This document shows, piece after piece, positions 2,162-62,890 of a DNA stretch of 64,000 nucleotides. Made by a program: the position numbers and the translations under genes. Origin of the DNA: Stegostoma tigrinum (taxonomy: Eukaryota). Within the stretch, counting starts at the first letter, position 1, and every line of letters begins with the position of its first letter. Below the pieces are notes generated by a model that had not been told where the DNA came from, made no database searches, and saw nothing but the letters and a program-made list of their open reading frames with translations. The DNA lies in NCBI RefSeq assembly GCF_030684315.1, contig NC_081370.1, positions 45,712,728-45,776,727 on the forward strand, in the 5' to 3' direction.

Positions 2162-2334
2162 GAGATAACAAGGTGTAGAGCTGGATGAACACAGCAGGCC
2201 AAGCAGCATCAGAGGAGCAGCAAAGCTGACGTTCTAGCCTTCCTGCTCATCTGATGCTGCTTGGCCTGCTGTGTTCATCCAGCTCTACACCTTGTTATCT
2301 CAAGATTCTCCAGCACCTGCAGTTCCTGCTATCG
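2162..2334. mobile_element. Penelope-derived mini-hairpin insertion
   Basis: Inverted arms of about 60 bp plus a tail. TSD ccagaacatt at 2152-2161 and 2335-2344. Confidence 0.85.
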
Positions 2335-3199
2335 CCAGAACATTCTTTGAACACTCCAAGATTTCTACACCTTACGAATTCTGATATCTTGATAATCACT
2401 GCTTTTAATCTCTTCTATGCTGTAGCATCAGATGCTTAGACCCCGAACTCTGGGGCTCCCTAAACCTCTCCCATCTGGGACTCTATTAAAAGCAGACTTC
2501 TTTGACCATTTCTTAGTCATCCAATCTATTTCCTTACGTGACGTAACAATGTAAAACGCTCACATGAACCTTCTTGGAATGTTTTATGGTTTTAAAATTG
2601 CTGCATAAATTAAAGTTGATATCGTCAAGTGATTAATTCAAAGAATTTATTCCATGTGCTCCATTTTTTACACAAGTCCATGGTGCAGCACTTTACCAAA
2701 TGTCTATACATCACATCAATAACATTACCACTGCCAATTCTTCTTGTTATCTCTTTAAAACCTCCAGCCAGTTAGTTAAACATTATTTGCAGTAAACAAG
2801 TCTGAAATAACTCAATGAAGGCCGAAATCCTGTCACCAAGTCATCCTTTACTTACAAATACATTATATATGACATTAGCTCAGCCAATTTAGAGCCAGCA
2901 TCTAGAGTGAACAAAATCCCTGGCACTCCTGTTTGTATCTGTCAGTCAGGGCTCCCTGATTGGACCAAGTTAACAGCCTGAATTAGGGAACTCACTTTTA
3001 GGGAACTCGCTTTCTGTGAGATCTGCCTGGTTGACTTTGTTACAATCACGAAAATCCGTAGCGGCTTTCCTTATTGAATTTGCATTTGCTCAGATGATTA
3101 TTAATTTTATCCAGAATTTGTTTCTAAAACCTCCCTCACCAGTGAGATTAAATTTACTAATCTATAATTGCAGGACTTGCCTTTACAAGCTTTTTTTTT

Positions 3200-3900
3200 C
3201 TAACATTTGCCAAAATATGCCAAAATATGTCAGTGCCAGGACACAAACCTGTTTGACTCCCAAAGTGACATTTGATCTGACAAAGCTGACCTTAATGCAA
3301 TGAGGAATGAAGATCATGTTGAGCAGCTTTAGCCGGGAGCCAATTTTCTCCAGCAGTTGAAGTAGTCCATCTCTCTTCACTTGAATGAACACCTGAAGGC
3401 AACACATAGTGGTCCTCTTCCTTCATGACAATTCTTTTGCAGTTCCAGGCTGAGAAGATCATGCCAATTATAAACCTTCTGGTTCTGAAAGCACACTTCC
3501 ATTCAGGAGAGATGCATTCAGTCAGAATCTGAAACCTGACAAAGGCAGCACAGACAAATACTTTTCCTGTGATGCTTGCAATAGTTGTTCCAATCACCGC
3601 AGCTGTCTTTGTTCTTGTGTAGGGTTACAATCTCAGCATTGTATAGGCTGAGAAACTGCACCCTCTCCCCAGCAGAGACAGGGACATTCAGGGAATGCTG
3701 CAGGAGTACAAGTTTCCCATCCTTGATGAGTTCAGGCAGTATAATATCAGCTGCTAGTTCTCCGCCCATACCTAATGAATTAATAGCTTTGCTAAGCTCC
3801 CCCACTGTGCATTCTTCACCCAGTTCTGGCATGACTGGCAGGCTTTCTATGCAGGTGATGATGACCTCCTCTATCATTTCTTAGTGTAGAGCTGCTTCTC
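3200..3900 (-). mobile_element. RTE-clade LINE reverse transcriptase fragment
   Basis: ELSKAINSL..DIILPELIKDGK.VLLQH, SITGKVF..RFQIL.E.I.PE..CAFR..R....MIFS and the DLTK region, all frameshifted. Confidence 0.75.
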
Positions 3901-7542: not shown

Positions 7543-9102
7543 TCAATCAAATAGTCTCTTCAGAAAGCTTTTCTTCATTGGTGTCCTTTTCAGAGTGGCT
7601 GGTGATTTCTTACGCGGAGATTTAATTGGTGTTCGCTTTATCTGTTTCTTCTTTTGAGGCGTTTGAATTCCTCTATCGATGTAATGCTCATTGCAAAAAT
7701 ACTGTGTGTTTTCTTGAGAAAACTGAATCAGCTGCGACTCTGCAAGATTCATGCACTGGGCATGTACCCAGTGTCCATCATCACCTCCACTCGAGCAGAA
7801 AATCATTGCAGGTTTATTTAATTCTGTGGAGTAATAAGGTTCCCAGATGTTGACGTTCACATTACATGTGGAGCTGCATTTAATCCAATAACCTTCCTCA
7901 TCAGCATTATCTCGGTTCTCTGCATCATCAGAACCCTCGCCCTCTACTTCAAAGTTAAATTCTTCTGAATCTTCAAAGGTGCTGCATTCTTCTGGATCAG
8001 TAAAGGATTCTTGACTACAAGGAATTTGACTTTCTTCGTCTAATTGCCCAAATTTTGCTATGTAGAAGAAGTTTGCCTCGGCTGCATCTTGTTTGCTTTC
8101 TCCGGGAATGCCAATTAACACTGCATTACTTTCCATGCTGCTACCAAACCAGGTTTTGCTTGCTTTAATATCAGTGGTCCATGCTGGGGGCTCCTTTTCC
8201 AAAATCTGAATGTTGTCGTTCTCCACAGTGATGGTATTGCAAATCATTCGCTTCTTGATCTCGGACTCGTAGCCACCCACAATTATGAATTCATCTTTTC
8301 CAGCTGGGGTCACAATTGCACTGGACACAGAAATGCCGCCTTGCAGTACTGTGCACTGTACACTTGGAGAAGTCCCTAATAAATCAACCTTCAGACAAAG
8401 CAACCTTGTAGGGCGACGATTAGTTTCAATTGAATGACCACCTAATATGTACACTCTGTCAATTTTTGCAATGGCGATATGAAATGAAAACCCATCCTCT
8501 ACTTCGGGAAGTATGTGGGACGTGCAGTGGCCGGTGTTTATATCAATCAGAAAAGCTTCCGGCAAACAATCAACTACACTGTTCCAGTTTTCCGTGGTTC
8601 TTTGCCCTGGGGGCCGAAAACGTCTACCCCCAAACAAGACACATAACATTTGCCCCTTGCACTGAACCACATTGATGCTGTGACCATATCTTCCTTGGGG
8701 AACGTCTCCTTCAAGATTTTTTTCAATGCAACGAAGTGATGTTCTCTTGTTGCCAGTGCTGCTGTAAACCATCATTAAATAAAGTGAATTAGACAAGTCA
8801 TTATTTGGATCTCTCCCGCCATGGATTAAATATAAAGGGCTCTTAGGCTCTGAGGGATCTGAGTAATGTGTTATTGCAGGACAACGCAATGGGGGAAGGT
8901 AACAGGAGTCAGGTGAAAATGAAACCGCTTTCAGTCTGAAACTATGGCCTTTGAGATGAAGAAGAAAAACTCCAGTGCTGCACGATCTTTTTGGCCACCC
9001 TTTCTGACCAAAAAAGAAGACCTCACCGTTAAAATTGAATAAAGAAAAGCCTGGGTAGATGAGTCCAGTTTTGATATTCTCTGAGACCATTTGCAGAGTC
9101 AT
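7543..9102 (-). CDS. RAG2: Recombination activating protein 2 (single coding exon, about 519 aa)
   Basis: ORF 7543..9147 has RAG2 signatures: FFGQKGWPKRSC.TGVF, SCYLPPLRCPA, GRYGHSI, LFGGR, RTTENWNSVVDC, acidic hinge FEDSEEF, PHD GYWIKC..C...MIFCS..HWVHAQCM..YFCNEH and C-terminal KKSFLKRLFD. The true start is probably MTLQMV at 9102, because a minus-strand acceptor (cttcttttcttccacag|) puts the exon start at 9127, making the first ORF residues intronic/UTR. Confidence 0.98.
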   Translation of the reverse strand: MTLQMVSENIKTGLIYPGFSLFNFNGEVFFFGQKGWPKRSCSTGVFLLHLKGHSFRLKAVSFSPDSCYLPPLRCPAITHYSDPSEPKSPLYLIHGGRDPNNDLSNSLYLMMVYSSTGNKRTSLRCIEKNLEGDVPQGRYGHSINVVQCKGQMLCVLFGGRRFRPPGQRTTENWNSVVDCLPEAFLIDINTGHCTSHILPEVEDGFSFHIAIAKIDRVYILGGHSIETNRRPTRLLCLKVDLLGTSPSVQCTVLQGGISVSSAIVTPAGKDEFIIVGGYESEIKKRMICNTITVENDNIQILEKEPPAWTTDIKASKTWFGSSMESNAVLIGIPGESKQDAAEANFFYIAKFGQLDEESQIPCSQESFTDPEECSTFEDSEEFNFEVEGEGSDDAENRDNADEEGYWIKCSSTCNVNVNIWEPYYSTELNKPAMIFCSSGGDDGHWVHAQCMNLAESQLIQFSQENTQYFCNEHYIDRGIQTPQKKKQIKRTPIKSPRKKSPATLKRTPMKKSFLKRLFD

Positions 9103-11979: not shown

Positions 11980-12095
11980 AGGTGGACCCGCCCGCAGGCT
12001 TTGTGGGATCTGTAGTTCTCAGACTGCGCCCACCTAGACTACATGTCCCAGCATTCACCGCTCCGTCGGCGTTGCCTGGCGACAGGAGTAGGCAG
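11980..12095 (+). promoter_or_regulatory. IFTAP: CpG-rich NWC/IFTAP promoter and probable non-coding first exon
   Basis: The only CpG-dense non-repeat patch noticed. It has two divergent ZNF143/Staf motifs (11998-12016 minus ACTACAGATCCCACAAAGC; 12038-12056 plus ACTACATGTCCCAGCATTC), an X-box GTTGCCTGGCGAC (12071-12083) and a donor CAG|GTAGGG after 12095. Its position upstream of the RAG2 coding exon matches the known NWC promoter in the RAG2 intron. Confidence 0.8.
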
Positions 12096-13899
12096 GTAGG
12101 GCCTTTGGAGATTGCTGCAAAACTCTTTAAGGTTATAACAACAAGCTGCGTCTAACAACCGCCTGCGTCCTCGTCATCAATAAATAATGCACAGTACAAA
12201 TGGTGGTGGGGAAGAGTTAAAGATCATCCACTGTGAGGGTTCTGAGTCTGAGGGGGCGGGGAATCTCTACACTGGGGGAGGTGGGGTGGTCTGTCCACAC
12301 TACGTGTCCGTGTGTTTTGGGGGCGGGATAGTTTCGATGGCCTCTCTGCTCTGGGTGGTAGGTTGGTGTGGGCTTTCTACACTGTGGTTGTGGGAGAGGG
12401 GGTGATCGTTCTATACCATGGCTGGAGGGGGCTGGTGGTGTCTCTACACTGTGTGTGTATGTGTTGGGGTGCCCACACATTATATTTGGCTGAGTGCTGG
12501 GGTGGGAGTTTATCAGTCCACTTGTGAGCTTTAAGTGGTTGCTCTCATCTAGATACCACTGTGGAGTTTTGATTTATACTGAACAGAAGGATGCCATATG
12601 GAGAATTCTGTCAGTTGCGCCTTTTTGAAAGAGTATTCCATTCAGTTTCAGCTCTTGGCTGTTTACTGTAAGATTTTATTTCTTTCAATTACTGATTTAT
12701 TTCCCTTTAACCGTTGGCACCATTACCTCTTTATTGTTCTGTCAGACTGTCCATTTTTCTGGGTTAAATTTCATCTGGGATCAATTCATTCTGTTTGCTA
12801 ATCCATCTTTATCTCCTAAAGTCATACAAATCATTCCAAAGCTAACCAGGCTTTCTATCTTAATATCTGTAAGTTGATATTGTGTTGTTAAATAATATAT
12901 GGCTGTGATACATATATAGACTAGTGCAAAGTGCTCTAAGATTCTTGACCATTAATATAATTTTAATGCCATGTACCTTAATTTTGTGTAATGGTTTATC
13001 AAATTGCTTTTGAGAATCCACTTGTACTGCAATCCCTGTCACTATACACTGCATTATTTCCTCAAGCACTTGATGCAATTTGTCAGCTATGACTTGCCTT
13101 TTATAGATGTCTCACTCTATGATGATATTCAGTTGACTTGGTTTCATGGCTGGTAGAAATCTACCCCATCTAAATGTGAATTATATTGCAAAAGGAAAGA
13201 AGGATTTACATTTATCCAATTTGTACTTTTACAACATTTTACAAATAAGTTTTGTTGTGAGCATTTCATTTTCTCTTTGAATTCTAATGCTGCTATTTTT
13301 CAGTTTGGTTCACGTGGAGGTCTTGGAAAGAAATGCTTTGCAAAAGCTTGTGAAGTGAATGTTAGTTTTCTCCTGAATAGCAGTTCATTGCAACATGGCC
13401 TGAGAGGTACTTGTTGCAAAAAGAAATGGTGTTAACCACTATGCCACCTGGACAGCTAAATAATCTAGTTTTTACCTTTTTTGTTAGTGTTGTGAAACCA
13501 TTCTGTTAAAGAATCTGGTTTGCTATAAGAAACCAACATTGTGGCACGTGTTGTTAATAGCTTGTGCAATAAATCTGACAATACTGTGCTATCATTTCCA
13601 AAATTGATCTGAAAATTGATTTTTTTAGTATGAAATTTTGATTGAAATTCTCCAATTTCACATAAGTATTTCTACTGAACTATAATCAGCATATTAAATA
13701 ATTGGAATTTAACCTTTTGTAATCACTGTTAAGGTGGTCACCCTCAGCCCTGAACAGTGTCCAGTTCACTTCAGATTACCCTGCAGCTACAATACAGTAA
13801 TAACATGAGTGCCGTTTGCCACTAAAATTATGGTGTCATCAAACCAAAAAGATGATTTGTCTGTCACAATTGGATAATGTACATGCATTTTGGTTTAGC

Positions 13900-14620
13900 T
13901 GTGATGCCAGGTATATAGGTGGTGCATCCCAAAGACTAGTGGGTCAAATCAAGTAACACGTCTCTTTGGCTGCTCACAACAAGCAAGGTACTCACTATCC
14001 ACAGCCAGCCTGTCCTTGGAAAACCCACAGCAGTGTCTAAGATTAGATGCGATTCTAAAATTGGATACTTATTGGATAATAAAATGTGAGGCTGAATGAA
14101 CACAGCAGGCCCAGCAGCATCTCAGGGCCTGCTGTGTTCATCCAGCCCCACATTTTATTATCTTGGATTCTGCATTTCCCATTATTACTTATTGGATAAT
14201 CCTGAATGTGCAACAGATTATGCTGACAGCCAATGTATGATAGTTCAGCATGGCCCGCTTGTGTGTACTGGAAGCTTATCACGTGGAGGCCTATTCTTTG
14301 TAGCTAGGAAAAACATGTATATGCACCGTATCTGTTTCAGCCATTTGTTGATTAATTTCTAAGAGCAGTGTCCTGACCAATCATAGCCAACTTGCATAGT
14401 TTGAAACTTAATCAAACCTATCTGTTAACTATCAATTAGCATTATTGGGTATATTATCATTGGCAACATCTCTATCAATCAGAATACACTGGCCAACCAA
14501 TCAGCAATTTTGTTTTCTGCAGCATAAATGTTGGTTTTGCCATTGAATTGGCATTTTTGCAAAACGTCCTGATGAGTACAGTGCAAAAGCTTTGACAAAA
14601 GTAGCCTTTTTCAACAGTAG
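13900..14620 (+). mobile_element. Older, different Penelope-like 3' end (GIY-YIG C-terminus, CCAAT boxes, degenerate hammerhead), interrupted by a mini-hairpin
   Basis: Removing the insert gives CDSKIGYLLDNPECATDY. There are several ccaatca boxes and gtc-CTGATGA-gtacagtgc-AAAA-gcttt-gac at 14566-14596. Confidence 0.55.
14081..14185. mobile_element. Penelope-derived mini-hairpin insertion
   Basis: TSD tacttattggataat at 14066-14080 and 14186-14200. Confidence 0.85.
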
Positions 14621-19480: not shown

Positions 19481-22400
19481 TTTTAAGTGAAGGAGCTCAT
19501 CGCCTCTGGGCTCTTCAATTTGCAGTTAATTTCTTAGATGTAGGCAACTTTTAGGTTTATTATTAAAGCAAAAGCAAAATGTTAACTGACTTGGGTACAT
19601 AAATGAAACTGTGGGTCAGTATAGTATACATTTTTATCTTTGTACATTGGAACTCTAAAATGTCTTTTTTTAAAAGAGGACTAATACACTCAAAAATGGC
19701 TGTGGATATGAATTAAGTGACATTCTGGAGAAAGATAAACCCATGGAATGTCACCTTTGGATACAAAGAGAATGTTACACAACATCCCTTCAAGGTGAAG
19801 AAGAGGCATGTCAAAACAGACTGGACTGTGATCTCATTTGACTATAAAGATAACAAGAGGCTGATGACTCCTACTCAACAGCAAGCTATTCCCTGCACAT
19901 TATGGTGCAAACTGCATTCATGTTTTGTTCTCTTCCCTTTGAAGAATACACAATGACAGTTCAGTGCGCTGATGGGACTGAATGCTGCTGTGTGTACCAG
20001 CTTGGGTTTGAGCATTACCGTACCACAGTCAAAGAACCCGCTCTCAGTCACCCCAGTGTTGTGACAAAAGGGATTCTGTCACTCTTTGTCGTGGAGGTCA
20101 GATAGCTAGCAGTCAGACAAAAGGAAATAGGATCACCAAAGGACTTTCTCTGGCTCTGAATACTAGAATACAGTCGTAGCCAATAGGAATCAGATTGATA
20201 AAATCTCAACTAATCTGCAACCAAGGACCATAAAATTGGCTTTTCAACTCACAACGTTAATTCTACTGATAACCTTCACTGCAACAGCCGCAATTTACGA
20301 CTAATCACTAGTCATAAACAATTCAGAGTCTGAAAGCTTCTTTTTCAACTGTATCTTTTTTGGACTTGCCTCTTCTTTCTAATCTCTGTATGGGTTGAGT
20401 TACTAATTTTTCTATTGTTTGGTAATTGGTCAACTCATTCTTTTGATAATATGTAAGCCTGGAGAAATTGACTCCTTTTAGAACATAAATTCATTTGAGC
20501 CCTGGGAAATGCATCCAAAAGGAAAGGGATCATTTTAAAATTGACCTGTTGTGACCGAGAGGATGGGTGAATAAAAAAAGTGGACACAACATCCCCCCTC
20601 CCCCCCCAATCCATGAGTTTAATGATTTGGGGTGTGGTCATTATGACTGCAAAATGTCGTCGTTCATTGAAATTTTTGCATTTGTGATTAAGCAAACTAA
20701 TTTTGGCAGAAACTTAAACTGTAACCTAACCAGGGCAATTCCTGAATACATGGCCATCACACACTTTGATTATTCCTGGATTGAAAACTCTTTTCTAATT
20801 TATTGTGATTTCTAGCAAAAAAATTTTTATGAAGATATTTGCCCAATTCTGTTGTATGCTTTGGAGGACAATGGTTATGTCTTTATGAAGCTTTTTTTGA
20901 ATTTTAATGGAAATACATGATAATGCTTATTCAGTAACCAGTCAGAATTGACATACGGTCGACAGCTCAGCGAGGTGGTAAATAGATAGTAAATGGTGCT
21001 CAGAGTAAGTTCTAGAAAATATCATACTCTTGATTATAAGGAGGGCATGTGGATAGATGCATTGGATAGTGTCTCTGCCTCTGAGCCAGATCTCCAGATT
21101 TGAGTCCCACCCAGGGATTTAACAACCAAGGAATTCTGTATGTCATAATGTGGCTGAATAATTGAGGATCAAGCTACAAATCCTTCTGGCACATGCCAAC
21201 AGCATGCAGTAATAACAGGAGAAATTGCTGGTCTGTCATGTAACGGAAAGAAAGTTAAGATCTCTACCCTTACTATCCAGAGCTCCAGATGACAAAGTGC
21301 ATGTTGTCACATGCTCAGTCTCCCTGCCTGATATGTAACATGCTGACACCACTCTTGGTTATGAATTGTATAGCATTGACTTTAGACACAATTTGGGGTT
21401 TCTAATGGCAACATTCCATGGCTGTTGTTTAAAGACAAATCCGGAAGATAAAGAACTTGTCATCTTTCTTCTTAGGCAGATCCTTGAGACTAAAAATGAC
21501 TTTCTTTCATTTGGATAAAAATCGGAAGAACGGTGGATGCTGTAAATGAGAAACATAAACAGAAGTTGCAGGAAAAGCTCAGTAGGTTTGGCAGCATCTG
21601 TGGAAAAGAAAATCAGAGTTCACGTTTTGGGTCTGGTGACCTCCCCGAGGAAGGGTTTATGTAATGTTCAGTTCTCAAGGCTTTTTCCTGTCTGTCACTG
21701 ATGGTAGATTATGACTGAAGTTCATACTTCCTGAATTTGGGAATTTTTCATTTCCTTGGGCTCAGTTATTTCTTCCAATGATTATTGGTCACATCTGTGG
21801 GGTGGTGTTTGGAGTAGCCCAACACAAGGAATTGCTTCAAAATTCTTCTGGAGTGCAAGATTTTTGAGACTCTTGGATATATTGGGAAAAATATGAAAAT
21901 GCTGCAGCATGTGAAAAAAAATTCCCTTAAATGTTTTCCTCAAAAGACCGCTGAGGTCTTCAAATTCTTTTCTTTTTAAGAGTTTGATTTATCATCCATA
22001 AGTTGGGTTGAGCTTGGGCTGAAAATGCACCTAGAGCACAACATTTCATCCTTTTTGTCATGATAGATGTTTTGAGGCTGTTATGCTGGCATAGAGTTCC
22101 ATAGAGGACAGTGGTCCCCATTTACTGTGTTTGGAAAGTCAGTCATGAGGAGTCATCAGTTTAAAACAGCTGTTAAGAATGTTGGAGAGGGGTTAGAAGA
22201 AAATGTTTTATGACAGTGTTAGAACATGGAATACTTTGCTAGAGGGTACAGTTGTGACTTGAGTAGTTGCTTTAAAAAAAGTTGATAAATACTTGAAATA
22301 GACAATCATAAGGAACTGTGAAGAGACAGTAAGAACAGCAAACAATTAGATTAAACCGTCTCACTCTGTTTTAAAGGAAAAATAAATCATTTTATTGCTT

Positions 22401-22501
22401 CAGAGATAATGGGAACTGCAGATGCTGGAGATTCCAAGATGATAAAATGTGAGGCTGGATGAACACAGCAGGCCAAGCAGCATCTCAGGAGCACAAAAGC
22501 T

Positions 22502-22529
22502 GACGTTTCGGGCCTAGACCCTTCATCAG
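22502..22529 (-). ncRNA. Minimal type I hammerhead ribozyme motif (mirror copy)
   Basis: Exact reverse complement of 23794-23821. Confidence 0.75.
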
Positions 22530-23095
22530 AGAGGGGGATGGGGGGAGGGAACTGGAATAAATAGGGAGAGAGGGGGAGGCGGACCGAAGATGGAGAGTAA
22601 AGAAGATAGGTGGAGAGAGTGTAGGTGGGGAGGTAGGGAGGGGATAGGTCAGTCCAGGGAAGACGGACAGGTCAAGGAGTTGGGATGAGATTAGTAGGTA
22701 GCGGGGGGTGCGGCTTGGGGTGGGAGGAAGGGATGGGTGAGAGGAAGAACCGGTTAGGGAGGCAGAGACAGGTTGGACTGGTTTTGGGATGCAGTGGGTG
22801 GGGGGGAAGAGCTGGGCTGGTTGTGTGGTGCAGTGGGGGGAGGGGACGAACTGGGCTGGTTGAGGGATGCAGTAGGGGAAGGGGAGATTTTGAAACTGGT
22901 GAAGTCCACATTGATACCATATGGCTGCAGGGCTCCCAGGCGGAATATGAGTTGCTGTTCCTGCAACCTTCGGGTGGCATCATTGTGGCAGTGCAGGAGG
23001 CCCATGATGGACATGTCATCAAGAGAATGGGAGGGGGAGTGGAAATGGTTTGCGACTGGGAGGTGCAGTTGTTTTTTGCGAACTGAGCGGAGGTG

Positions 23096-23199
23096 TTCTG
23101 CAAAGCGGTCCCCAAGCCTCCGCTTCTGCAAAGCGGTCCCCAAGCCTCCGCTTCTGCAAAGCGGTCCCCAAGCCTCCGCTTCTGCAAAGCGGTCCCCAA
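23096..23199 (+). repeat. Tandem repeat of a 28-bp unit, about 3.7 copies, at the palindrome apex
   Basis: ttctgcaaagcggtccccaagcctccgc starts at 23096, 23124, 23152 and 23180 (partial). Confidence 0.95.
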
Positions 23200-23793
23200 A
23201 GCGGAGGCTTGGGGACCGCTTTGCAGAACACCTCCGCTCAGTTCGCAAAAAACAACTGCACCTCCCAGTCGCAAACCATTTCCACTCCCCCTCCCATTCT
23301 CTTGATGACATGTCCATCATGGGCCTCCTGCACTGCCACAATGATGCCACCCGAAGGTTGCAGGAACAGCAACTCATATTCCGCCTGGGAACCCTGCAGC
23401 CATATGGTATCAATGTGGACTTCACCAGTTTTAAATCTCCCCTTCCCCTACTGCATCCCTCAACCAGCCCAGTTCGTCCCCTCCCCCCACTGCACCACAC
23501 AACCAGCCCAGCTCTTCCCCCCCACCCACTGCATCCCAAAACCAGTCCAACCTGTCTCTGCCTCCCTAACCGGTTCTTCCTCTCACCCATCCCTTCCTCC
23601 CACCCCAAGCCGCACCCCCCGCTACCTACTAATCTCATCCCAACTCCTTGACCTGTCCGTCTTCCCTGGACTGACCTATCCCCTCCCTACCTCCCCACCT
23701 ACACTCTCTCCACCTATCTTCTTTACTCTCCATCTTCGGTCCGCCTCCCCCTCTCTCCCTATTTATTCCAGTTCCCTCCCCCCATCCCCCTCT

Positions 23794-23821
23794 CTGATGA
23801 AGGGTCTAGGCCCGAAACGTC
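23794..23821 (+). ncRNA. Minimal type I hammerhead ribozyme motif in the Penelope-like pseudo-LTR
   Basis: CTGATGA-agggtctaggccc-GAAA-C-GTC: intact catalytic boxes and a stem II. Activity is not demonstrated. Confidence 0.75.
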
Positions 23822-26800
23822 AGCTTTTGTGCTCCTGAGATGCTGCTTGGCCTGCTGTGTTCATCCAGCCTCACATTTTATCATTTTATTGCTTACCTGT
23901 TTTTCTCTTCTGAAGATGTCTTGGACTAATTCAGATTAGATGAGATTTAAACTTTTAAAATTGTGCTTACTTATAAGAATGGGGCATGTCTTGATTCTTA
24001 ACCTAACGCTAAATTGGGGTGATTTGATGGCTGTAATCCAGTTGTTGGTGCCCAGTCCAGTTCTTTGTGAAGCACTTTCAAAGTCCCATTGTGCTGTAGT
24101 AAATACACTTTTGTCACCTTGTTTTAGTGAATTATCTCAAAAAAGCTTATGAACATGAAGAAATGTATAACTTGAACATGATTATTTCGAAGTTTGGAAT
24201 ATGTAGTGAGTCGATCACTTGCAAAAATTAGTTTAAGAACTAGAATTCTCACTATTGTAATCTTATGATTATAATAAGTGCAAAATGTCTCTCCCTGATT
24301 GTTTAATCTTCTTTATAATGAGCTTTGCCAAGTGTTACATTTGTCTGTGGTTGTGACTATATGAAGAGCTCTTCTAAGAAAGGGAATTGAACAGATGCCT
24401 ACATTTCTTCAGTTCAAACCACAGAAAGAAAAGCTCTGTGACTTGTTTAATTCATTCATAGTTGAACATTTCTTGAAGATTTAGAGATTTAGATTTGTGT
24501 GTTTAGAGATTATCTTTTTATATTTAAGTATTTGAGTACCATATTTGTGGGCTAGAAAATGGCATGCTGGATCATTGGCTGCAAGTTGTAGCTTGAGGGC
24601 GTCTGATTATAAGTTATAGTAATTTATATTATAAAATTGTAACTAATGCTTAGTGCTCTTAGTTCATATTCAATAAGGTCATCATGTGATGAGTTCTTAA
24701 AAAAAAAACAAGTGGTTTCTAAAAGGCCGATAGTCATGTTAAAATAACTTGTTGGTGAAAGTGGAAACAGATAGGGTTGAATACTGCCACATTTGGAGGT
24801 AATGCAGGGAAATGTGGTTTATTTTTGCAGATGAGAAATATCCTGCAATAAAAAGCAATTTCACCATTAACATTGGTGGTAGTGATAGAACATACGTAAA
24901 TGTTATTTTACTTGAAGCCAAAACCTAGCAGCAGTGAGGACGAAACTCACTAGACTCTGCAGTGTTGTCTTGGTAAATTCATTGATATGTGGTTTCATTT
25001 TACAATGTGCCCTCAAGCCATAAATAATCTTTGTTACAGACAAATCGTATTTACCAAATTTAGTAACATTTCTGAATAAATAATAAATTTGACACCAAAA
25101 TCCCAGGCGTACATAAGGCTATCTAATATGATAAGAGCCCAAGGCTTAGTGTATTGGCATGGGTGAAGGAACAAACAACTATTCACTTAAAAAAAATTAC
25201 GTTTGTGTTCCTTCAACTAAATAAAGCCTTATAACAGTAAATTTTGACATTTTTTGACAGCTCTAATGAACTCGACAGTAATTACTTTATAAATATTTTA
25301 CACACATTTGTGCCTACATTTAACCATTCCAAAGGGCACCTGACCCCCACCAAAGGACATCTTACCTCTCGAGGGTGTTGTGGAACATGATACAAAAGGA
25401 TACCTTGAAACCTCCAAAGGGGTACACTGGCTAATTAAAGATATCTTTAAAATTTAAACCTTCTCTTACCCAGGTCTAATCTGCACACCCTGGTTTCATG
25501 TCTCTGAGCTGCCAAGAACCAAATTAAATGGAGGCAATTGATGATTTAAATACTTAACTGCATCCATGAGTCATGTATGTACAGATTCTGATTGGACTAC
25601 ATTCCCAGTCCTGCAAAAATAGGTAGTGCTGTGTTCAGGGCAAAAATCCAAGCCTTGGTTTTGGTCTTGCCTGTTGGTAAAACTTGTGTTTCTGAATCAG
25701 CAGATCTTGGGATCAATATCCATCCCAGAAAAAAAGGCTGATACCCACCATGTATTACTCAGGAAATGCTGGTTTGTTAAAGTTGATGTTTGATTGAGAT
25801 ATTAAACTGAAGACCCATCTACTATTTGAACACATGTATTTCATGGCCAGCAGTTTTCTGAGTGTCCTATCATTTATATATCCCTTGGGAATCATCATTA
25901 GAGGAGATTATCTGTGAAATCTAACTGTGCGCAATATATTTGTCACCTTTCCATCAATTACAGTAGTAACCACTAATTCAGAGAACTCAATTAAATGTGA
26001 AGTACTGTGACATATCTTGTGGCTTTAAGAGGCACTGTACAAATGAAATTCCTTTTTAAATTCATGCCATCATTTGTGTTGCTCTATGCTATGTAATGTT
26101 GACTGTTTGGGCTATTTACTGTGACCAAGAAACACCAAATACTAAGTCAGAATAAAGAGCCTTCAATCTCGTGTTCGTATGTTCACAGAGGGTAACTGGT
26201 GATCAGACAATTTGATGGTACATATTTACTGTTTTACCCTCTTTCTGCTATACGTACTTTTATATTTGATGATGTGACAATTCTACCGAACTATAAACAA
26301 GATAAGGAACAAAATAAACAAGGGATTTCAGCCTTGTGTGCTTGTGAATGGCCTTCTACCTGTGCTATACAACTGTCCCTTTGCCACCTTCCCCAGCTTC
26401 TCTATGGCCCTTTCTTCAGAAAGACTGAAGGGTCACAGCTTTGCCCCTTTCACAATCTGCATATTCTTTCTTGTATTACTTTTGAATGCAGATGATTTTG
26501 TACATGCCCACTGACGAGAGTGTGACTGTGCTTTTAGTGGTAGATAAACATGACGTGTGCTTGTCTATGAGACTTTGCTGAGTGAAAACTGTATTATGAA
26601 TGCTTCCTTAATTTAGTTTTTACGAGCTGTTACTGCAGATGTTTGAAATAGGAAGAGTTGTGTGGCAGCTGAGGTCCTGTCCGCTTGTTGGAGACCTAAG
26701 AAATCGTGTGACTTTTTTTTTTGAAGATGCTTCGTGAATTCTCCTAGCATGCAGCACATTTCCACAACTGACAGTACCAAAACAGTTTAATGAGATTGTT

Positions 26801-28818
26801 ATCAGTGAGTTTACAAATTCTTATCTTGTAGTGCATTTTGGGACATTCTTAAAAAAATCAGTCTAGAGAAAAATAGCTCTGGCACTTGATAAACAACAGA
26901 AGGAGGGACTAACTACCATCATTAATCAGTTCAATTTGCTCTCACATTCTCTCATAATTATTTGCACAACACATTGGTACTATAAAGAAGTTGCTTGATC
27001 ACTTACCTGGTAACAGATGTGTTGTTGAGGATATTATTTGCCATTCCAGGGTGCCAGTTGTCACCTTAACAAATATATAAATCATGCAGTCGATGAAAAA
27101 GATACTGGAGGTGGTTTTTCATGGAAGATTTTAAAAAGCTCTACAGCAGTTTGTATGGTGTTGGTGGTAGACGTCAAAACAATTGATAACAACAATGTTT
27201 CCTGTTACAAAACCACCAGGTTTTGCATAAACCATTCACATTGCCTATGTAAACATTTTCTGCTGGTTCATTTGAGATTCCCTAGAGGTCAGATTTGCAG
27301 AAGTTGGGGTTTTTCTCTGTTACAGATTTGAACTGTTATTTTTTAAAATGCTAGACAGCATGCTTTGCGATGCAACATCCTGGTTTTGTTGTTAAAAAGC
27401 ATTCAAAGTTTCAGAAACACATCAGTTTAGTATTTTATGTTCTACTTTACCAATTTCTCAGTTGAAATGCTAGATTTTTTTAAGCAATTCAATTTCATTG
27501 TCTTTACCGATAAATCACAATTATATCAGCAAATAACAAAGAATTGGGAGCCAGTAATTCTCAATGTAAGTTCAATTGGAATCAATTTCAGCAATCCTGT
27601 TTAATATTTTTGGCTACTTCGCTTTATAAGTTGCATTCTCGCAAACTGATACAACAAATGCAAAACCAAACTTCAAATTAAAGAAAATGCCCAAGACATT
27701 TGATAGCACCACTGTAATTCAGACATAAAGTGGGTACTTCAGCATCTAATATGTGACAATGATCAGGCACTTGTATTAGCTGAGACAGCCCTGGCTATGA
27801 CCAGGTAAAAAGTTGAACGTGGATTGCAATCACGGTGAGAGCACGAAAAAGATAAGTGAAAAGAAATGTGGTCAAGTGATTGGAGAAGACTGAAAGGAAA
27901 TGGGGACAGGAGTATTTTGATCAGTGAGTTTGGAGGTATCAGCAGGGAGTTAGAGATCTAGATTTTTTTTTCCCTTGGTAATCCTAGTAATTTAATTGTT
28001 TCCTCCCCCTCCAGCATTACTGTCATGTCCTATAAGGTTAAGTTACTGGGTTGAGCTATGCCCTGTTTCCATTGATGGAGAAGGTATAACTTTCAGAGCC
28101 AAGCAAGGAACAGGATCTTCCTCATTTTGTTCACTGCCTTCACCAGGATCTCTAAAGTGTTAGCAGACAACCTGGTGGCCTGTCTGGACTACTTAGAGAG
28201 TTGTTTTCAAAGGGTTAATTTGGTTCTTTCACCTGTCCTTGAATGTCTGAAATATGCAGTTTCCTGACAAAAACTTGTGAACTCCATGTATTTGCAATTT
28301 TGTAGTCACTCTTTCCTCACTCAATCATAGGGCATGCTTTTGAAGTCTGTGCAGACAGAATTCATAATGAGCCATAGATTTTTATTTTATTTTGATTTAA
28401 AGTTTATTTGTTATATTTCAGTCTTTTAAAAATAAATTCCATGTATATGTTACTATCTTTGTTTCCCTGCGTGTAAAATGATTAACAAATGATGGGCAAT
28501 TGGAATGTTTAACTTCTTGGTGTGCCATCAGTGAAAATTCTTTATTATGGTTCACTGCTTAGCCTGTTGATTGACAGAACTGGAGATATCCTTCATTTAT
28601 GACAGATCCAATTTAACTTTGAAAGACATGAAATATTCACCACAGAGGTCGCTAGATCTTTGTGGACTACTTCCTTTGAAGTAAATAATGAGTGAGCCCG
28701 TGCACCTCACCATTGACCAAATGGGCCCATTTGTTTTATTGTAGCTATCCTATGCCTGTTTTGTATTCTAGATGAAATATCTACACTAGAGATGTGAGCA
28801 GTGTTGAGATCACAAATT

Positions 28819-28921
28819 ATGGAGGAAGGAGGAATAGCCTTTGATGCTTTGGAAAGATTTTGCAGCAGTCATGAACAAACATATGCTGAATTCTTGGAAT
28901 CATTTATGCACCTCAGAAAAG
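28819..28921 (+). CDS. IFTAP: NWC/IFTAP (C11orf74) first coding exon
   Basis: Acceptor ttgtattctag| at 28771. Encodes MEEGGIAFDALERFCSSHEQTYAEFLESFMHLRK, resembling the mammalian [24 protein letters not shown] motif. Donor G|gtaagc, phase 1. Confidence 0.9.
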
Positions 28922-37580: not shown

Positions 37581-40500
37581 TCGGATTCATTTTCCTGTTA
37601 TACAGTAGTTGCCAATGTTTGTTTTAAGTGATAAATCTTGCTGTGACCCAGTCAAAGCTGCTATTTTGAAGGTGGTTAACTAAACTGGATTAACTGTAGA
37701 TATTGTCTAATCAACCTATCCAGAGTTGTTTTTATGTAAGTATGGAGCATGTGGGACTTGAACCCATTCCTCCTGACCCAGAGGTAAGGACTCTATCACT
37801 GAACCACGAGAGCCTTTAGTGCTAGATTAATTGTACTTGTCTTTTTCTATAAGCTGTTGCCTTGGGCAACATTTGGTATAGCTGCAGCCATTTAAGTTTG
37901 CCTGGCAACTCTGCAATGCCTGACATAAAGACCAGAAACTGGCAATGTAATTGAAAAATAATTTATTAACAAAAAATATTGGTCTAAAAATAATGTGAAG
38001 GAAGTAATTTTCACGCAAACCCTCAACGTTTTGAGAGACTTCAGACATAAGTCTATTGATGCAGAGATGGCCAAGAGGCTCATGACCACTTTTTCCAGTG
38101 CAAGTAGAGATGGGCAGTAAACACTGGCCAGCAAGCAAAAGTAAAGTTTTAAAGATTATGAAAGGTTGTGAATGGGAAATATTTTCTCAACTTGCAGAGT
38201 CAATAAGGAAATCATAATTTTAAAATGGCTCTGGGAAATGGGGTAAAATGAATATACAAGTATTTATGAAGAGAATTCTTAGAACAAGGATTTTTTTCCT
38301 AAAAGTGATTAATTATGGCAGAGACTTTTGTATGTAGGCAAGGAAGAATAGACATAATCGGAAGCAGAGGAAAATGCAGAATCCCCCTTTGAGATTAGTT
38401 TGGATTATTCTTGCATGTAACTGGTCAAATGACCATCTCTGTTAAAAGGTTTCTGTATATAATGACTTTGTTTCTTTGAGATTTACTGTTGTCTTGCATT
38501 TAGATCAATTAATATAGTAAGGACATTGTGTAAAACAATCTGGATTTCAGACCAGTAAAATAACAATGCACCTTCAAACAGTGGTTAAGGGCTTAACAGT
38601 ATTTAGAGTAGATATTCATTGTATAGAGCAGTTGCTGTAGGGTGAACGATATAATTTAGTAGGGTCTGATAGAGATGCCTGAGACCAAATGGGAAACAGG
38701 TGATGATTTTATGCTAAAGAATAGGCAGCATGCATGGAGAGAAAGCAAGCTGACGTAACAAGTCTAGACTCAAAATGTTACCTTGGCTTTCTTTTCATGG
38801 ATGCTGCCTGACCTGCTGTGATCTCTAGCATTCCTTGTTTTCAGTACAGATTCCAGCATCTACAGAAATGTACTTCTCCTTAATTAAGGGATAGTTGGCA
38901 AGCTCTTTGCTGAATTTATAGCAACAAGTAACCACTGTGGTTCTGGTTTGTGTAGAAATGAAACTGACTAGACAGGTATATGGCTACACTTTGGCATACC
39001 AACATATAACCTCTGGTATTTAATAGTGAAATTCAACTTTTAACAAATGGTGCTCGAGTGAGTAACAACAAAAATGTTATATTTCAACTGTGTATGTTTT
39101 GTGTAATTTTGTTCATTGCTTGTCAGAGCTAGTTAAAAGGTAGAGCGAGATGTGCTCTTATTTTCACTGCCTAGAAAAAATAGTACTTTCCCCGACATTT
39201 ATTGTGTTCAGCTAAAATATTTTCAAGTGTCTAGTAGTTCCAGAATCAACATCAAGGCCTGAAGTGTATAAACATACGCTTGCAAATGTTGAAGCATTAG
39301 CAAAGCATTGGTTTCCATTTAAAATAAGCCCTGTAGTAGGGCTCTCTTTTTCTTTAGATGACAATAACAGGTGCTTTGTAGAATTTTAAAGTGAAGCCAC
39401 AGCTTTGAATATGATGGAAGTTAAATGAATGTGCTTTTTCCTAAAACCTATGATTTTAATAACCAATTGCATTCTTAATTAAATAGTTTTCTCCAAGAGC
39501 ATGAAGACTATTACTTCTGTGCTCAGGTTCTTCTCCTATAACACTTTGATTTCTGTCGGTTACTGCATTGTGTTCCTTGTAACGAATGTTTCCTGTTTAC
39601 GTGAACCATACAGAACAGTAATTGTGTTTATGGTAGAGTGATCAGAGTTGATTTCTTTTGTCTTGCACAAAGAATATATTTCTATACTTTATCCGAACAC
39701 TCTTAAAATGAGATACTTAAAGAAAAATAACATTTTGGATATTTTATGGAGACTCGAGGAAAAAATGTAATGCTCACCAAGTGATTTATCCCTTGGCTAG
39801 TATTTAACGTTGTATACTTCAAGCAAACAAAAATAAAATGCGGTGAAGTGTATCTTGTTGCTGCAAGTTGCAAAGGATGCTGGGTGTCAGAATTCCAATC
39901 TTCTGGTGAAATGCTCTTGAGATGCTGCTGGGCCTGCTGTGTTCATCCAGCCTAGCTTTTGTGCTCCTGAGATGCTGCTGGGCCTGCTGTGTTCATCCAG
40001 CCTCACGTTTTATTATCTTGGGCTGTTTTGTTGGTTGCTTGCCTATTTAACATTCTCAGCTTCTTTATTCCAAGCCAAACTGGCTGCAGAGGTCCTTGTT
40101 CAGGTTTAATGATGAAAACTCACCTTTAAGTTCATTTAAAGTAGGCATGCTCCTACAAGCTGAGTCTATTACATGCCAGCTGTTTAGACCATTGTATCAA
40201 GTAGGTTTCTCTGGTAAATCAGGCGATGTAGGATAATTCATTCACTCCGCTTTGAAATGACCCAGTTGAATTACTAAATCTTCTAGCAGTAAGTTAGAAA
40301 TTTCCTGTAATATCCTGTATTGGACCACTTCAGACTCAGTTACAAGTCAGGCCTATTGAATCTTTTCATTCCAGCAAATGGAACTAGTTTAGTTTGGGTA
40401 ACCTTGGTCAGTGTGGATGAATTGGACCAAAGGCCCTCGTTCTGTTCTGTATGACTGTAACTGTCACTTGAGACAGTGAGCAAACATCTGAAAGAAACGG

Positions 40501-50619: not shown

Positions 50620-52015
50620 GTGCTGGTGATCAACCTAAAAATTGAAGTGTACAGAGATCTCGTATGGCTTACAATTTCTACACGCTCGCAGCAATGCTCC
50701 GGCATTTCCAGGCCTTACAATCAAGCCTACCCCAACTCAGAGCCTCCCTGTCCCAGACCTGCGAGGGACCTTTCCTGTTTTTCATTCTTCGCAGGATCCA
50801 CAACCTCAACTCACGATTCTACTCTGCCTTATTGGACACTAAAAACCCATAATTATACTAAACTTACTGGTGCTTGCCACCCAACACAGGCCTCTTCCAC
50901 CCCCCATCCCCCAAGTTCCCAACCCTACCCTGGACCTTCCCCACAATGTGCCCACCACCATTGACCATATGGCCACTGTCGGGGCACCCATGGACTCCAT
51001 GGATGACATCACCTCTGTCGACGTCTGGCACGCCACGTCTGGTACGGTGACTGCTATCGACATTGCTTCCCTCCAATCCAACCCCAACCTCACTATAAAA
51101 TCTGCTGATAAGTGTGGCGCAGCTGTAGTATGGCACACTGACCTCTACATTGCTGAGGTCAGGCGCCAATTCTCTGACACCTCCTCCTACCACACCCTTT
51201 ATCATGACCCCACCCCCAATCATCAAAACGTCATCTCCCAGACCATCCACAACCTCATCACTTCAGGTGACCTCCCAACCACAGCCTCCAACCTCATTGT
51301 TTCCCAACCCTGCACCGCCTGCTTCTATCTCCTTTCCAAAATCCATAAACCTGACAGTCCTGGTTGACCCATTGTCTCCGCCTGCTCCAGCCCCATCGAA
51401 ATCATCTCCACTTATGTCGACTCCATTTTCACTCCCCACCTATGCCCATGATAACACCCACCACCTCCACCTCCTCCAAAACTTTGATTCCCTGATCATC
51501 AACACACCATCTTAACCATAGACACCCAGTCCCTAAACACTTGCATTCCCCATGCAGATGGCCTAAATGCCCTCTGCTTCTTCCTGTACCGCAGGCCTGA
51601 CCAGTCCCCCTCCACCGACACCCTTATCTGCTTAGCCGAACTCGTCCTTACCCTTAACTTCTCTTCAACTCCTCCCTTTCCTACAAACAAAGCAGGTGGC
51701 CATGGGTACCCGCATGGGCCCAAGTTATGCCTGCTTCTTTGTAGGATACGTGGAAAAATCCCTCTTCCACAGCTACACTGGCCCCTTGACCTGTCTGTCT
51801 TCTCTCCACCTATCTGCTCCATTATCCACCTTTCGTCATCGCCTCTTCCTCTCTCTCTCTGTTTCAGAGTCACCTTCCCCTCCCCCATTTCTAAAGAAGG
51901 GTCCAGACCCGAAACATCAGCTTTCCTGCTCCTTTGATGCTGCTTGGCCTGCTCTATTCAACCAGCTGTACACCTTATTATCTCAGACTCAGGCATAAGC
52001 AGTTCCTACTATCTC
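50620..52015 (+). mobile_element. Decayed Penelope-like element: reverse transcriptase fragment plus 3' terminus
   Basis: TIKSADKCGAAVVW..LYIAEVRRQFSD, FYLLSKIHKPDSPG*PIVS and AMGTRMGPSYACFFVGYVE are Penelope RT motifs. It ends in a degenerate hammerhead (ctaaaga..gaaacatc, about 51891) and the shared terminus. Confidence 0.85.
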
Positions 52016-52211
52016 TTAGGATTTTTAAAGTTTTTTTTCCCTGTAAGTATTATTTAACGTTGATTCAAGGCAGAGCAGCTGTGAATTCTCACATCTGTAT
52101 TTTGACATCTTGTGACATATCTCAAAATCCTGAGACGTATGTCACCAGAAAGTCATGTTCTCCACTTCAAGATGCCATAAGTAAAGTGTGCTTCTCCTTA
52201 TTTTTCATCAG

Positions 52212-59419: not shown

Positions 59420-60140
59420 CAATAACAAGAATTGCAGATGCTGGAGTCAGAGTCAACACTGTGCAACTGGAGGAACGCAGCAGGCCTGGCCGCATCAGAG
59501 GAACAGGAAAGTTGACATTTTGGGTGGGTTGGGACCCTTCTTCAGAAATGGAGGAGAGGGAAGGTAGCTCAGAAATAAATAGAGGAGGGGTGAGGCTGGC
59601 AGAAGGTAGGTGGGATTGTGATAGCTGGATGTTGGTAGGGGATAGTGGAGATTGGTCAGTGGGAAAGGTGGGCTGGATAGGTGGAGAAGAAGATGAACAG
59701 GTTGTGTCAGATCAAGGAGGTGGAAATGAGAGAGAGGGTTGGATGTGGGATGAGGCCGGGTGTGGGGAGATTTTAAAACTGGTGAATTCTATGTTTAGGC
59801 TATTGGGTTGTATGCTCCTGAGGTGGAATATGAGGTGTTGTTGCTCTAGTCATTGTGGCACTAGAGGATGCCCAGGATGGACGTGTCACGTCCGACGCTG
59901 ACAACTCTCTGCCATCGACATTGACAACCAATCCCCACTACTCCCTACCTGAGTTAACCTATCACCATCCCAACTCCCTTACCCCAGCCAGACTCATCCT
60001 CTCTCTTGCTTTCTTGACGTGACAGAACCTGTCCATCTTCCTCCCCACCTATCTGCCCCACTGACCAATCCCTAATACCTGCATCCACCTATCGCCATCC
60101 CATTAACTTCCCACATCCCCACCCCTCCCTCTTTTTCCCA
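59420..60140 (-). mobile_element. Older Penelope-like 3' fragment with a short inverted arm
   Basis: Homologous to the arms at 22401-23879 (ILKLVNSMFRLLGC..WNMRCCCS antisense frame). Its right part reads as a diverged inverted copy. Confidence 0.75.
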
Positions 60141-60923
60141 GCTCCCTAGGCAATGGGAAAATTCAACAATGAAACCAGAGCATGTACCTGGTCGATTCAG
60201 CTTGCTTTGAATGACCTCCTTACTGAACATAAGACGTTGTTGCCAAAGGCATGACCTATGGGCACTAGCTGCACACACTCTTATAGGGACATCTGCCAAT
60301 TCAACGTTACTATTTTTGCACCTCTCTGATACACTGGCAGGCTGCTCACAGGGCACAGAATTAGACTGCAATGCACACTAGCAATTAGCTTTGTTAAGGC
60401 TGCAGCAGGGACTATTTGCATGGTCAGGAGCCCAATTCAAAGACTGGACCAGGCTGCATCTCAGGGCTGGCTGTTTGTGCCTTTAGTCTACCTGCATGTT
60501 CATGCCATCTGTTGCCAAGCCTTGACTTGATATGCTGTACAATACCCTGTTAGCTTGTTGGCTCTGTATGAGGAACGAAAGGTTTTCACTAATTCAGTTT
60601 TAAGGGGTTATTTAGCTCAGGCAGTGTCCTTGTCAGTATTTAACAGTCTAGGAGAGGAAGCACTTTGCTATCTTGGTGTGCCATTCATTCATGTAACACT
60701 AGCCTACGCCGCATGCCTGCATGGCAAACACAGTGCAGATTCATTCAAACAAATGGCCATGACTGAAACTGGTGGGGGTAGTTCTCAGTCCAGTCAATTT
60801 AAAGGGGGGAGGGAAGGTGGCATGTCAGCACCACTGTTGGTCAAAGGATCCTGGTACTTATATGGTCACAGTATAGGAGCTTTGACATAAGTATTCTGCA
60901 TGTGAGGCTGACAGTCATGGGAT

Positions 60924-61136
60924 AACACAGTGTGGAGCTGGAGGAACACAGCAGGCCAGGCAGCTTCAGAGGAGCAGGAAAGTTGTTTCGAGTCGGGATC
61001 CACCCCATTTCTGAAGAAGGGTCCCTGCCCAAAACATCAGCTTTCCTGCTTCTCTGATGCTGCCTGGTCTGCTGTGTTCCTCCAGCTCCACACTGTGTAA
61101 TCTCAGAATCCAGAATGGCAGTTCTCACTGTCTCCT
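60924..61136. mobile_element. Penelope-derived mini-hairpin insertion
   Basis: TSD gtcatgggat at 60914-60923 and 61137-61146, with a degenerate hammerhead ctgaaga..aaaacatc. Confidence 0.85.
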
Positions 61137-62692: not shown

Positions 62693-62890
62693 GTTTCAGA
62701 GATAGTAGGAACTGCAGATGCTGGAGAATCTGAGATAACAAGGTGTAGAGCTGGATGAACATAGGCCAAGCAGCGTCAGAGGAGCAGGAAGACTGATGTT
62801 TCGGGCCTAGACCCTTCCTAAAAGTCAGCCTTCCTGCTCCTCCGATGCTGCTTGCCCTGCTGTGATCATCCAGCTCTACACCTTGTTATC
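62693..62890. mobile_element. Penelope-derived mini-hairpin insertion
   Basis: TSD tcttttaa(a/t)gatgg at 62679-62692 and 62891-62904. Confidence 0.85.

What the first reader, a model, noticed from the sequence alone, without database searches (positions are those of the whole stretch)
22386..23894. Young 1.5-kb near-perfect palindromic Penelope-like insertion with a hammerhead core on each strand
Seen: two inverted ~680-bp copies of an element's 3' end differ at only a few positions and are bounded by one 15-bp TSD, so this is a single integration event. Each arm keeps an intact CUGAUGA/GAAA/GUC core (22502-22529 minus, 23794-23821 plus). The left arm has an extra ~38-bp tail. Established: Penelope-like elements carry minimal hammerheads and can have inverted pseudo-LTRs. 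Inference: transcription in either direction yields a long dsRNA hairpin and a ribozyme motif inside IFTAP intron 1. The DNA can extrude a cruciform, a potential fragile site a few kb from the candidate RAG2 promoter.
Basis: partly seen in the sequence, partly recalled or inferred. Interest (0 to 1): 0.7.

Follow-up and report, generated by a model that had tools for sequence, protein, structure and literature searches.

The report
Mirror-image Penelope insertion, one of thousands
This 1.5-kb DNA palindrome is a real, recent insertion of a very common Penelope-like jumping gene whose copies often land as mirror images; it was likely built by copying one broken RNA from both cut DNA strands, and its two ribozyme motifs are predicted to be inactive where they now sit.

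Summary
Observation confirmed: arms of 687 and 686 bp (99.4% alike), a 38-bp one-sided tail, two intact minimal hammerhead cores and a 15-bp TSD. A related species holds the empty site with one target copy. It is a 5'-truncated copy of a young Neptune-type Penelope-like family (17,450 exact tail ends). 57 of 100 tail-anchored copies carry the same inverted, tail-less arm, an architecture already in print. Best mechanism (inferred): twin target-primed reverse transcription of one RNA from two start sites, stutter at the RNA's 5' end, then joining. Either arm can be the longer one, which fold-back cannot explain. Ribozyme activity in the host intron is unlikely: both cores lie inside a 690-bp duplex and need a dimer. 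Family-wide, copies pile up at the predicted ribozyme cut (3,552 against 925, 712 and 595 at neighbouring bases), hinting at cleavage in vivo. The scan reported this family-level reading before on other DNA of this genome. The locus is ordinary; the family is a good mechanistic test bed.

The parts
22386..22400 (+). left copy of the 15-bp target-site duplication
   Evidence: single copy at the empty site in organism B
22401..22438 (-). 38-bp PLE 'tail', present on this arm only; marks the outer RT start site (inferred)
   Evidence: tail ends at unit 3602-3605 in 74 of 100 copies
22439..23125 (-). left arm: 3' part of the element (unit 2881-3568): end of the GIY-YIG endonuclease coding region, 3' UTR with a 39-bp repeat, pLTR
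   Evidence: 98.2% to a real full unit (L184)
22502..22529 (-). minimal type I hammerhead core; predicted cut after 22502 on the minus strand
   Evidence: fits the min-HHR description in PMC4209133
23096..23199 (.). 28-bp unit x3.7: the first unit is the left arm's 5' end, 23126-23198 are extra copies; likely RT stutter at the RNA template's end with a 2-nt (TT) realignment
23199..23884 (+). right arm (unit 2881-3568), tail-less; starts at the same base as the left arm; 1-bp deletion near 23432
23794..23821 (+). minimal type I hammerhead core; predicted cut after 23821
23880..23894 (+). right TSD copy; 23880-23884 (ATCAT) is microhomology with the arm's end
12004..12100 (+). context: candidate IFTAP/NWC promoter and first splice donor (two inverted ZNF143-like sites, X-box-like site; motif patterns recalled)
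   Evidence: two inverted ZFP-143 sites are described for the mouse NWC promoter in PMC4157847
28772..28921 (+). context: first coding exon of IFTAP (ATG 28819)
7543..9102 (-). context: RAG2 coding sequence

Best explanation
This is a dead, 5'-truncated insertion of an abundant Neptune-type Penelope-like retrotransposon, likely made in one event by twin target-primed reverse transcription. Inferred steps: the endonuclease cut both strands 15 bp apart. One free end primed at the outer start site (giving the tail), the other 38 nt further in, helped by the 5-nt match ATCAT. Both cDNAs ran to the same broken 5' end of one RNA (unit 2881). The left cDNA realigned on TT and re-copied the last 28 nt nearly three times, then joined the other cDNA's end, and repair closed the palindrome. 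It has no RT and no intact ORF, so it cannot move by itself. Its likely effect is that of a near-neutral intronic passenger that forms dsRNA if transcribed, with both hammerheads buried.
For: Shown: RT and GIY-YIG in longer copies (both below Pfam's curated cut-off), CX4CxxC linker. 57 of 100 tail-anchored copies have an inverted arm ending at unit 3558-3577 against tail ends at 3602 and beyond; a TSD of 11-17 bp was found in 52 of 55 directly joined cases. Among 29 long two-armed copies, 8 stop within 20 nt of each other (permutation mean 0.9; 0 of 20,000 reach 8), in 13 the tail arm is shorter and in 8 longer. Microhomology at both target junctions: mean 1.6 nt (41 scored of 54) and 2.1 nt (53 of 54) against 0.7 by chance. 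595 loop-less palindromes centred on a self-complementary 4-mer. Reiterations occur on either arm (4 of 157 arms). Here both arms share 5 substitutions seen in no other of 24 loci compared. In vitro, an anole PLE nicks and extends both strands from two start sites that bound the tail (PMC11167929). Empty site in organism B.
Against: The order of events is inferred from end products only. 21 of 29 long copies have unequal arms, which two separate RNAs (dual priming) explain as well. Shared variants may come from one source locus or from gene conversion between arms; in several loci the arms differ as much as unrelated copies do (L134, L181b, L174, L117). For this symmetric locus alone, fold-back of the tail-bearing cDNA is not excluded. 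The 100 copies are the first exact matches on one contig, from one subfamily. PMC3846280 favours self-priming on an antisense template.
Confidence: 0.68

Rival explanations
1. Fold-back or self-priming: one cDNA snaps back at its 3' end, copies itself, and the endonuclease cuts the copy at the AT-rich site 35-38 nt short of the end, leaving the tail on one side (close to the self-priming and 'EN-mediated resolution' ideas in print).
For: Equal arm ends and shared private variants at this locus; the centre can form a hairpin with a loop; 3 of 30 cut-site loci (L204, L213, L218) have the junction that a 3-bp snap-back of the tail-bearing cDNA predicts; PMC3846280 and PMC8557442 passages.
Against: In 13 of 29 long copies the tail-less arm is longer than the tail arm, by up to 2.4 kb. 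L202 has the same junction with the tail on the shorter arm. Loop-less 4-bp overlaps and reiterations on the tail-less arm (L065, L138). Here the right arm starts at the original template end, not at one of the repeats.
Confidence: 0.15
2. Dual priming: a protein dimer brings two RNA molecules, one to each nicked strand, and the two cDNAs join in the middle.
For: Unequal arms in 21 of 29 long copies; the anole protein is predicted to be a dimer (PMC11167929); dual priming is proposed for L1 (PMC2837659).
Against: Independent RNAs should not break at the same base: 8 of 29 stop within 20 nt against 0.9 expected, and both arms here start at unit 2881. The two ends use different fixed start sites.
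Confidence: 0.13
3. A functional element at the RAG2/IFTAP locus: active intronic ribozyme, regulatory dsRNA or fragile site.
For: Both cores are intact; it lies in the inferred IFTAP intron 1; a read-through RNA is predicted to fold at about -1600 kcal/mol; present in both organism A samples laid.
Against: Intact cores are expected at 2% divergence from the family. The cores are paired in the duplex; the monomer fold is a non-hammerhead hairpin; single min-HHRs showed no cleavage in vitro (PMC4209133). Absent in organism B, so not conserved. The shape is the family's commonest.
Confidence: 0.04
4. Assembly artefact from fold-back reads.
For: Perfect palindromes are a known long-read artefact (own knowledge); the centre was not read-tested.
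Against: Both junctions stand in short-read unitigs of two samples; TSD matches the empty site in organism B; arms differ at two places and only one has the tail.
Confidence: 0.01

Closest known systems
EN+ Penelope-like insertions with an inverted 5'-truncated copy and a 30-40-bp tail (PMC8557442 Fig. 2 legend; Pen2a_Av in PMC3846280)
   Same: Head-to-head arms, one-sided tail, one TSD, pLTR holding the start of a reading frame.
   Different: Here the two arms are equal, reach about 590 bp upstream of the pLTR, and enclose a 28-bp reiteration; the family has tens of thousands of near-identical ends.
Poseidon of Anolis carolinensis (PMC11167929)
   Same: Two RT start sites that bound the tail; both strands cut and extended in vitro; hammerhead at the pLTR.
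   Different: Other clade. That study found the ribozyme dispensable in vitro and no RNA reads ending at the cut; this family's genomic copies pile up at the predicted cut.
Minimal hammerheads of metazoan PLEs (PMC4209133)
   Same: Extra base between positions 9 and 10.1, G10.1-C11.1 pair, palindromic 15.2-16.2, no helix III; pairs on opposite strands 100-700 bp apart were already noted there.
   Different: Helix I is only 2 bp here; activity of this motif is untested.
L1 twin priming (as described in PMC2837659)
   Same: Second nick primes inside the same RNA; inverted part, one TSD, microhomology.
   Different: L1 gives inversion with deletion; here the second start is fixed about 35-38 nt from the first and both cDNAs copy the same stretch, giving an inverted duplication.

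Membership tests
EN+ Penelope-like element | single ORF with RT and C-terminal GIY-YIG endonuclease | tested here: met
   L034 ORF: RVT_1 E=6.7e-5, GIY-YIG E=0.0028, both under the curated cut-off; YIDD and the endonuclease motifs read; the window's arms are 98% identical to a real unit
EN+ Penelope-like element | partial-tandem organisation forming pLTRs, direct or inverted | tested here: met
   L184, L185; 57 of 100 with an inverted arm
EN+ Penelope-like element | 30-40-bp one-sided tail and TSD | tested here: met
   38-bp tail, 15-bp TSD with empty site
Neptune clade | CX2-5CxxC motif between RT and endonuclease (shared with Nematis) | tested here: met
   CNRRKCYTC; definition in PMC8557442
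Neptune clade | placement with Neptune, not Nematis, in an RT tree | not tested
   no named reference proteins were fetched; 'Neptune-type' rests on the motif and the vertebrate host
Minimal type I hammerhead | core CUGANGA, GAAA, NUH; helix II; palindromic 15.2-16.2 | tested here: met
   sequence; 4-bp helix II forms; no Rfam match
Minimal type I hammerhead | helix I of 4-5 bp | tested here: not met
   only 2 pairs flank the core by inspection; PMC4209133 reports a 2-bp helix I for the D. virilis variant
Minimal type I hammerhead | self-cleavage (as dimer) | not testable with these tools
   indirect only: peak of copy starts at the predicted cut
Fold-back DNA transposon or MITE | fixed terminal inverted repeats, copies of constant structure | tested here: not met
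   inner ends vary from copy to copy and outer ends differ by the tail

The most novel reading that the evidence does not exclude
The family's insertions record the Penelope reaction in vivo: obligatory-looking twin priming of one RNA from two fixed start sites, templates whose 5' end was cut by the minimal hammerhead, and, at this locus, telomerase-like realignment in which the RT re-copied the last 28 nt of its template nearly three times before joining the second cDNA.
Probability: 0.5. Interest if true: 0.62.

Novelty: new member of a known kind. Interest (0 to 1): 0.35.

Why it matters
The locus alone matters little: the architecture and opposed hammerheads are in print and the genome holds thousands. 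The family matters because how PLEs make inverted arms and tails, and whether their minimal hammerheads cut in vivo, are stated as open in the papers read (PMC3846280, PMC4209133, PMC11167929). Tens of thousands of young copies give base-level end statistics that separate the models. The 28-bp reiteration is a clear trace of template realignment by an RT that is sister to telomerase. Many long perfect inverted repeats in introns would also be a large source of dsRNA in this animal (untested).

Tried and rejected
Rfam scan at E<=10: 11 matches, none a hammerhead, all below gathering score and all but two on the central repeat; taken as chance. No RNA holder listed among public runs: no evidence either way on expression, editing or exon 1. 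Pfam found nothing in the 78-aa endonuclease fragment of the window. The apparent common 5' end of long copies proved to be the edge of a 21-bp repeat inside the ORF. RT stalling at the foot of the monomer hairpin as the cause of the cut-site peak: starts at +2 and +3 are 712 and 595, below +1, so it is weakened but not excluded. Self-complementarity alone as the cause: ACGT- and GGCC-centred palindromes number 31 and 21 against 595 for AGCT; only two control 4-mers were run. Literature searches for a twin-priming or template-switch model of PLE inversion, or for shark PLE palindromes, gave nothing relevant; the library lacks most subscription papers, and the 2005 and 2006 PLE reviews were not read. 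The paper on dimer cleavage of PLE hammerheads (PMC5785218) is not held; only its title was seen in a reference list. A sequence look-up in earlier findings gave nothing. No supplements were read; those of PMC11167929 (Fig. S1-S2) and PMC4209133 may bear on start sites and vertebrate motifs.
Full report
Observation. The coordinates hold. A 15-bp direct repeat (22386-22400, 23880-23894) encloses two inverted arms, 22439-23125 (minus) and 23199-23884 (plus), which differ at two places; the left arm carries 38 extra bases. Both hammerhead cores are identical and intact. The space between the arms is a 28-bp unit in 3.7 perfect copies: the first is the left arm's own 5' end, the rest re-copy it.

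Reality and age. Contigs of a related organism (B) cover the left flank to 22400 at record positions 782 (X6, 6265-nt record) and 267 (X10, 812-nt record), and the right flank from 23880 at 768 and 253; records were matched between the two answers by length and depth. The 15-nt overlap is a single target copy, so the site is empty in B and the whole 15 bp is target. In both organism A runs laid (2 of 4 full holders; two samples, one heterozygous at 24243 and one not) the unitigs run about 20 bp into the element at both junctions and show no empty allele. One may be the assembly's source. The centre itself was not tested with reads.

Identity. The arms match unit positions 2881-3604 and 2881-3569 of a real 3.6-kb tandem unit (L184) at 98%. 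Longer copies encode RT and a GIY-YIG endonuclease (both under Pfam's cut-off) with a CX4CxxC linker, the mark of Neptune and Nematis in PMC8557442 (passages). No tree was built. That the host is a cartilaginous fish is my recall of such repeats and the wording of earlier scan notes, not a test. Exact 33-mers count 17,450 tail ends and 89,887 pLTR cores in the 3.2-Gb genome.

The shape is the norm. I took the first 100 exact tail matches (11.7 Mb of contig C1; one subfamily; none dropped). 55 have a directly joined inverted arm, 2 a complex one, 38 are single-armed and 5 other. Inverted arms end at 3558-3577 (mode 3567-3568), tail arms mostly at 3602-3605. TSDs of 11-17 bp (mode 14) were found in 52 of 55. 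This architecture is described for PLEs: inverted 5'-truncated copy and 30-40-bp tail (PMC8557442, passages; PMC3846280, passages), and hammerheads on opposite strands 100-700 bp apart (PMC4209133, parts 1-2 of 4 read).

Mechanism (inferred). In 29 long two-armed copies, 8 stop within 20 nt of each other (0.9 expected; 0 of 20,000 permutations reach 8), 13 have the shorter arm on the tail side and 8 the longer. A fold-back copy cannot be longer than its template, nor gain a tail that its template lacks. Two independent RNAs should not stop at the same base. Twin priming of one RNA fits both. It agrees with the anole element, which in vitro cuts and extends both strands from two start sites bounding the tail (PMC11167929, parts 1-2 of 4 read), and with L1 twin priming as described in PMC2837659 (passages). 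Both target junctions show microhomology (means 1.6 nt, 41 scored of 54, and 2.1 nt, 53 of 54; chance 0.7); here it is 5 nt on the tail-less side. Central junctions overlap in 30, are blunt in 6 and hold inserts in 19 of 55. Reiteration at an arm's 5' end occurs in 4 of 157 arms, on either arm, each with one extra copy; this locus has 2.7. Against: arm-to-arm divergence averages 0.32% over 24 loci but equals or exceeds the between-locus level in several; shared variants do not separate one RNA from one source locus or from gene conversion; for this symmetric locus alone fold-back is not excluded, and 3 of 30 cut-site loci have a junction that a short snap-back predicts. PMC3846280 proposes self-priming on an antisense template.

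The ribozyme. The motif fits the minimal PLE hammerhead but has only 2 bp of helix I and no helix III as a monomer; alone it folds into another hairpin and Rfam does not see it. In the full transcript both cores are paired in the long duplex, and on either strand the sense core follows its complement. Activity at this locus is therefore unlikely. At family level, copy starts cluster at 3470-3478 (likely the RNA's 5' end) and at 3504, the base after the predicted cut. Genome-wide apparent starts number 925 (-1), 3,552 (+1), 712 (+2) and 595 (+3). The +1 figure counts perfect palindromes on both strands; by my count 39 of the first 100 rows are not of that kind, which leaves only about a 1.5- to 2-fold excess, and a few rows are small deletions. 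Loop-less palindromes centred on the first four bases after the cut number 595, against 31 and 21 for two other self-complementary 4-mers. This hints at cleavage in vivo, which PMC4209133 says was lacking and PMC11167929 did not see in RNA reads. It is indirect.

Host context. RAG2's coding sequence is 7543-9102 (minus); IFTAP's first coding exon is 28772-28921 (plus). Two inverted ZNF143-like sites and a donor at 12004-12100 resemble the mouse NWC promoter (PMC4157847, passages; motif patterns recalled). The insertion thus lies in the inferred intron 1, about 10 kb from that promoter and 13 kb from RAG2's ATG. The RAG2 promoter was not located. Cruciform and fragility were not tested.

Novelty. 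Four searches found no twin-priming model for PLE inversions and no account of these palindromes in cartilaginous fish, within a library that lacks most subscription papers. Also seen as passages only: PMC6155905, PMC6765202, bioRxiv 10.1101/2024.12.14.628481. Earlier notes of this scan give the same family-level reading for other loci; I had reached it and run its main tests before that look-up, and they are not independent support. Verdict: a real, ordinary member of a known kind, with an unusually clear reiteration at its centre; interest 0.35.

Noticed in passing
window 12004-12100: Two inverted ZNF143-like sites, an X-box-like site and a splice donor in a GC-rich patch 2.9 kb upstream of RAG2's ATG: likely the IFTAP/NWC promoter, with the architecture described for mouse.
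   Followed up: partly
window 2163-2326, 14075-14174, 39912-40021, 60921-61134, 62697-62891: Five further short mirror-image stubs of the same or sister families (75-97% to the unit); several arms start at or near unit 3504.
   Followed up: no
window 50685-52016 and 59429-59888: Older, more diverged (67-81%) PLE copies with RT or endonuclease parts.
   Followed up: no
L184 minus strand, unit start; L141-L170: A 21-bp repeat of variable copy number lies in frame in the ORF's N-terminal part (ADGTPPT repeats). In L184 a frame opens at an ATG just after the hammerhead, runs through the tail and meets a stop at the tail's end, after which the long ORF goes on in the same frame.
   Followed up: no
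L163, L168: Internally deleted copies framed by a direct and an inverted pLTR on one side and a pLTR on the other; possible non-autonomous derivatives.
   Followed up: no
L155-L158: The same junction and flank on four small contigs: a copy caught in a segmental duplication or satellite; inverted piece joined to a tail-only piece, the L1-like inversion without duplication.
   Followed up: no
L040, L049, L190: Head-to-head pairs in which both arms appear to carry the tail; may be a two-RNA class or separate insertions.
   Followed up: no
L068, centre of the insertion: 126 bp of unrelated DNA captured between the two arms.
   Followed up: no
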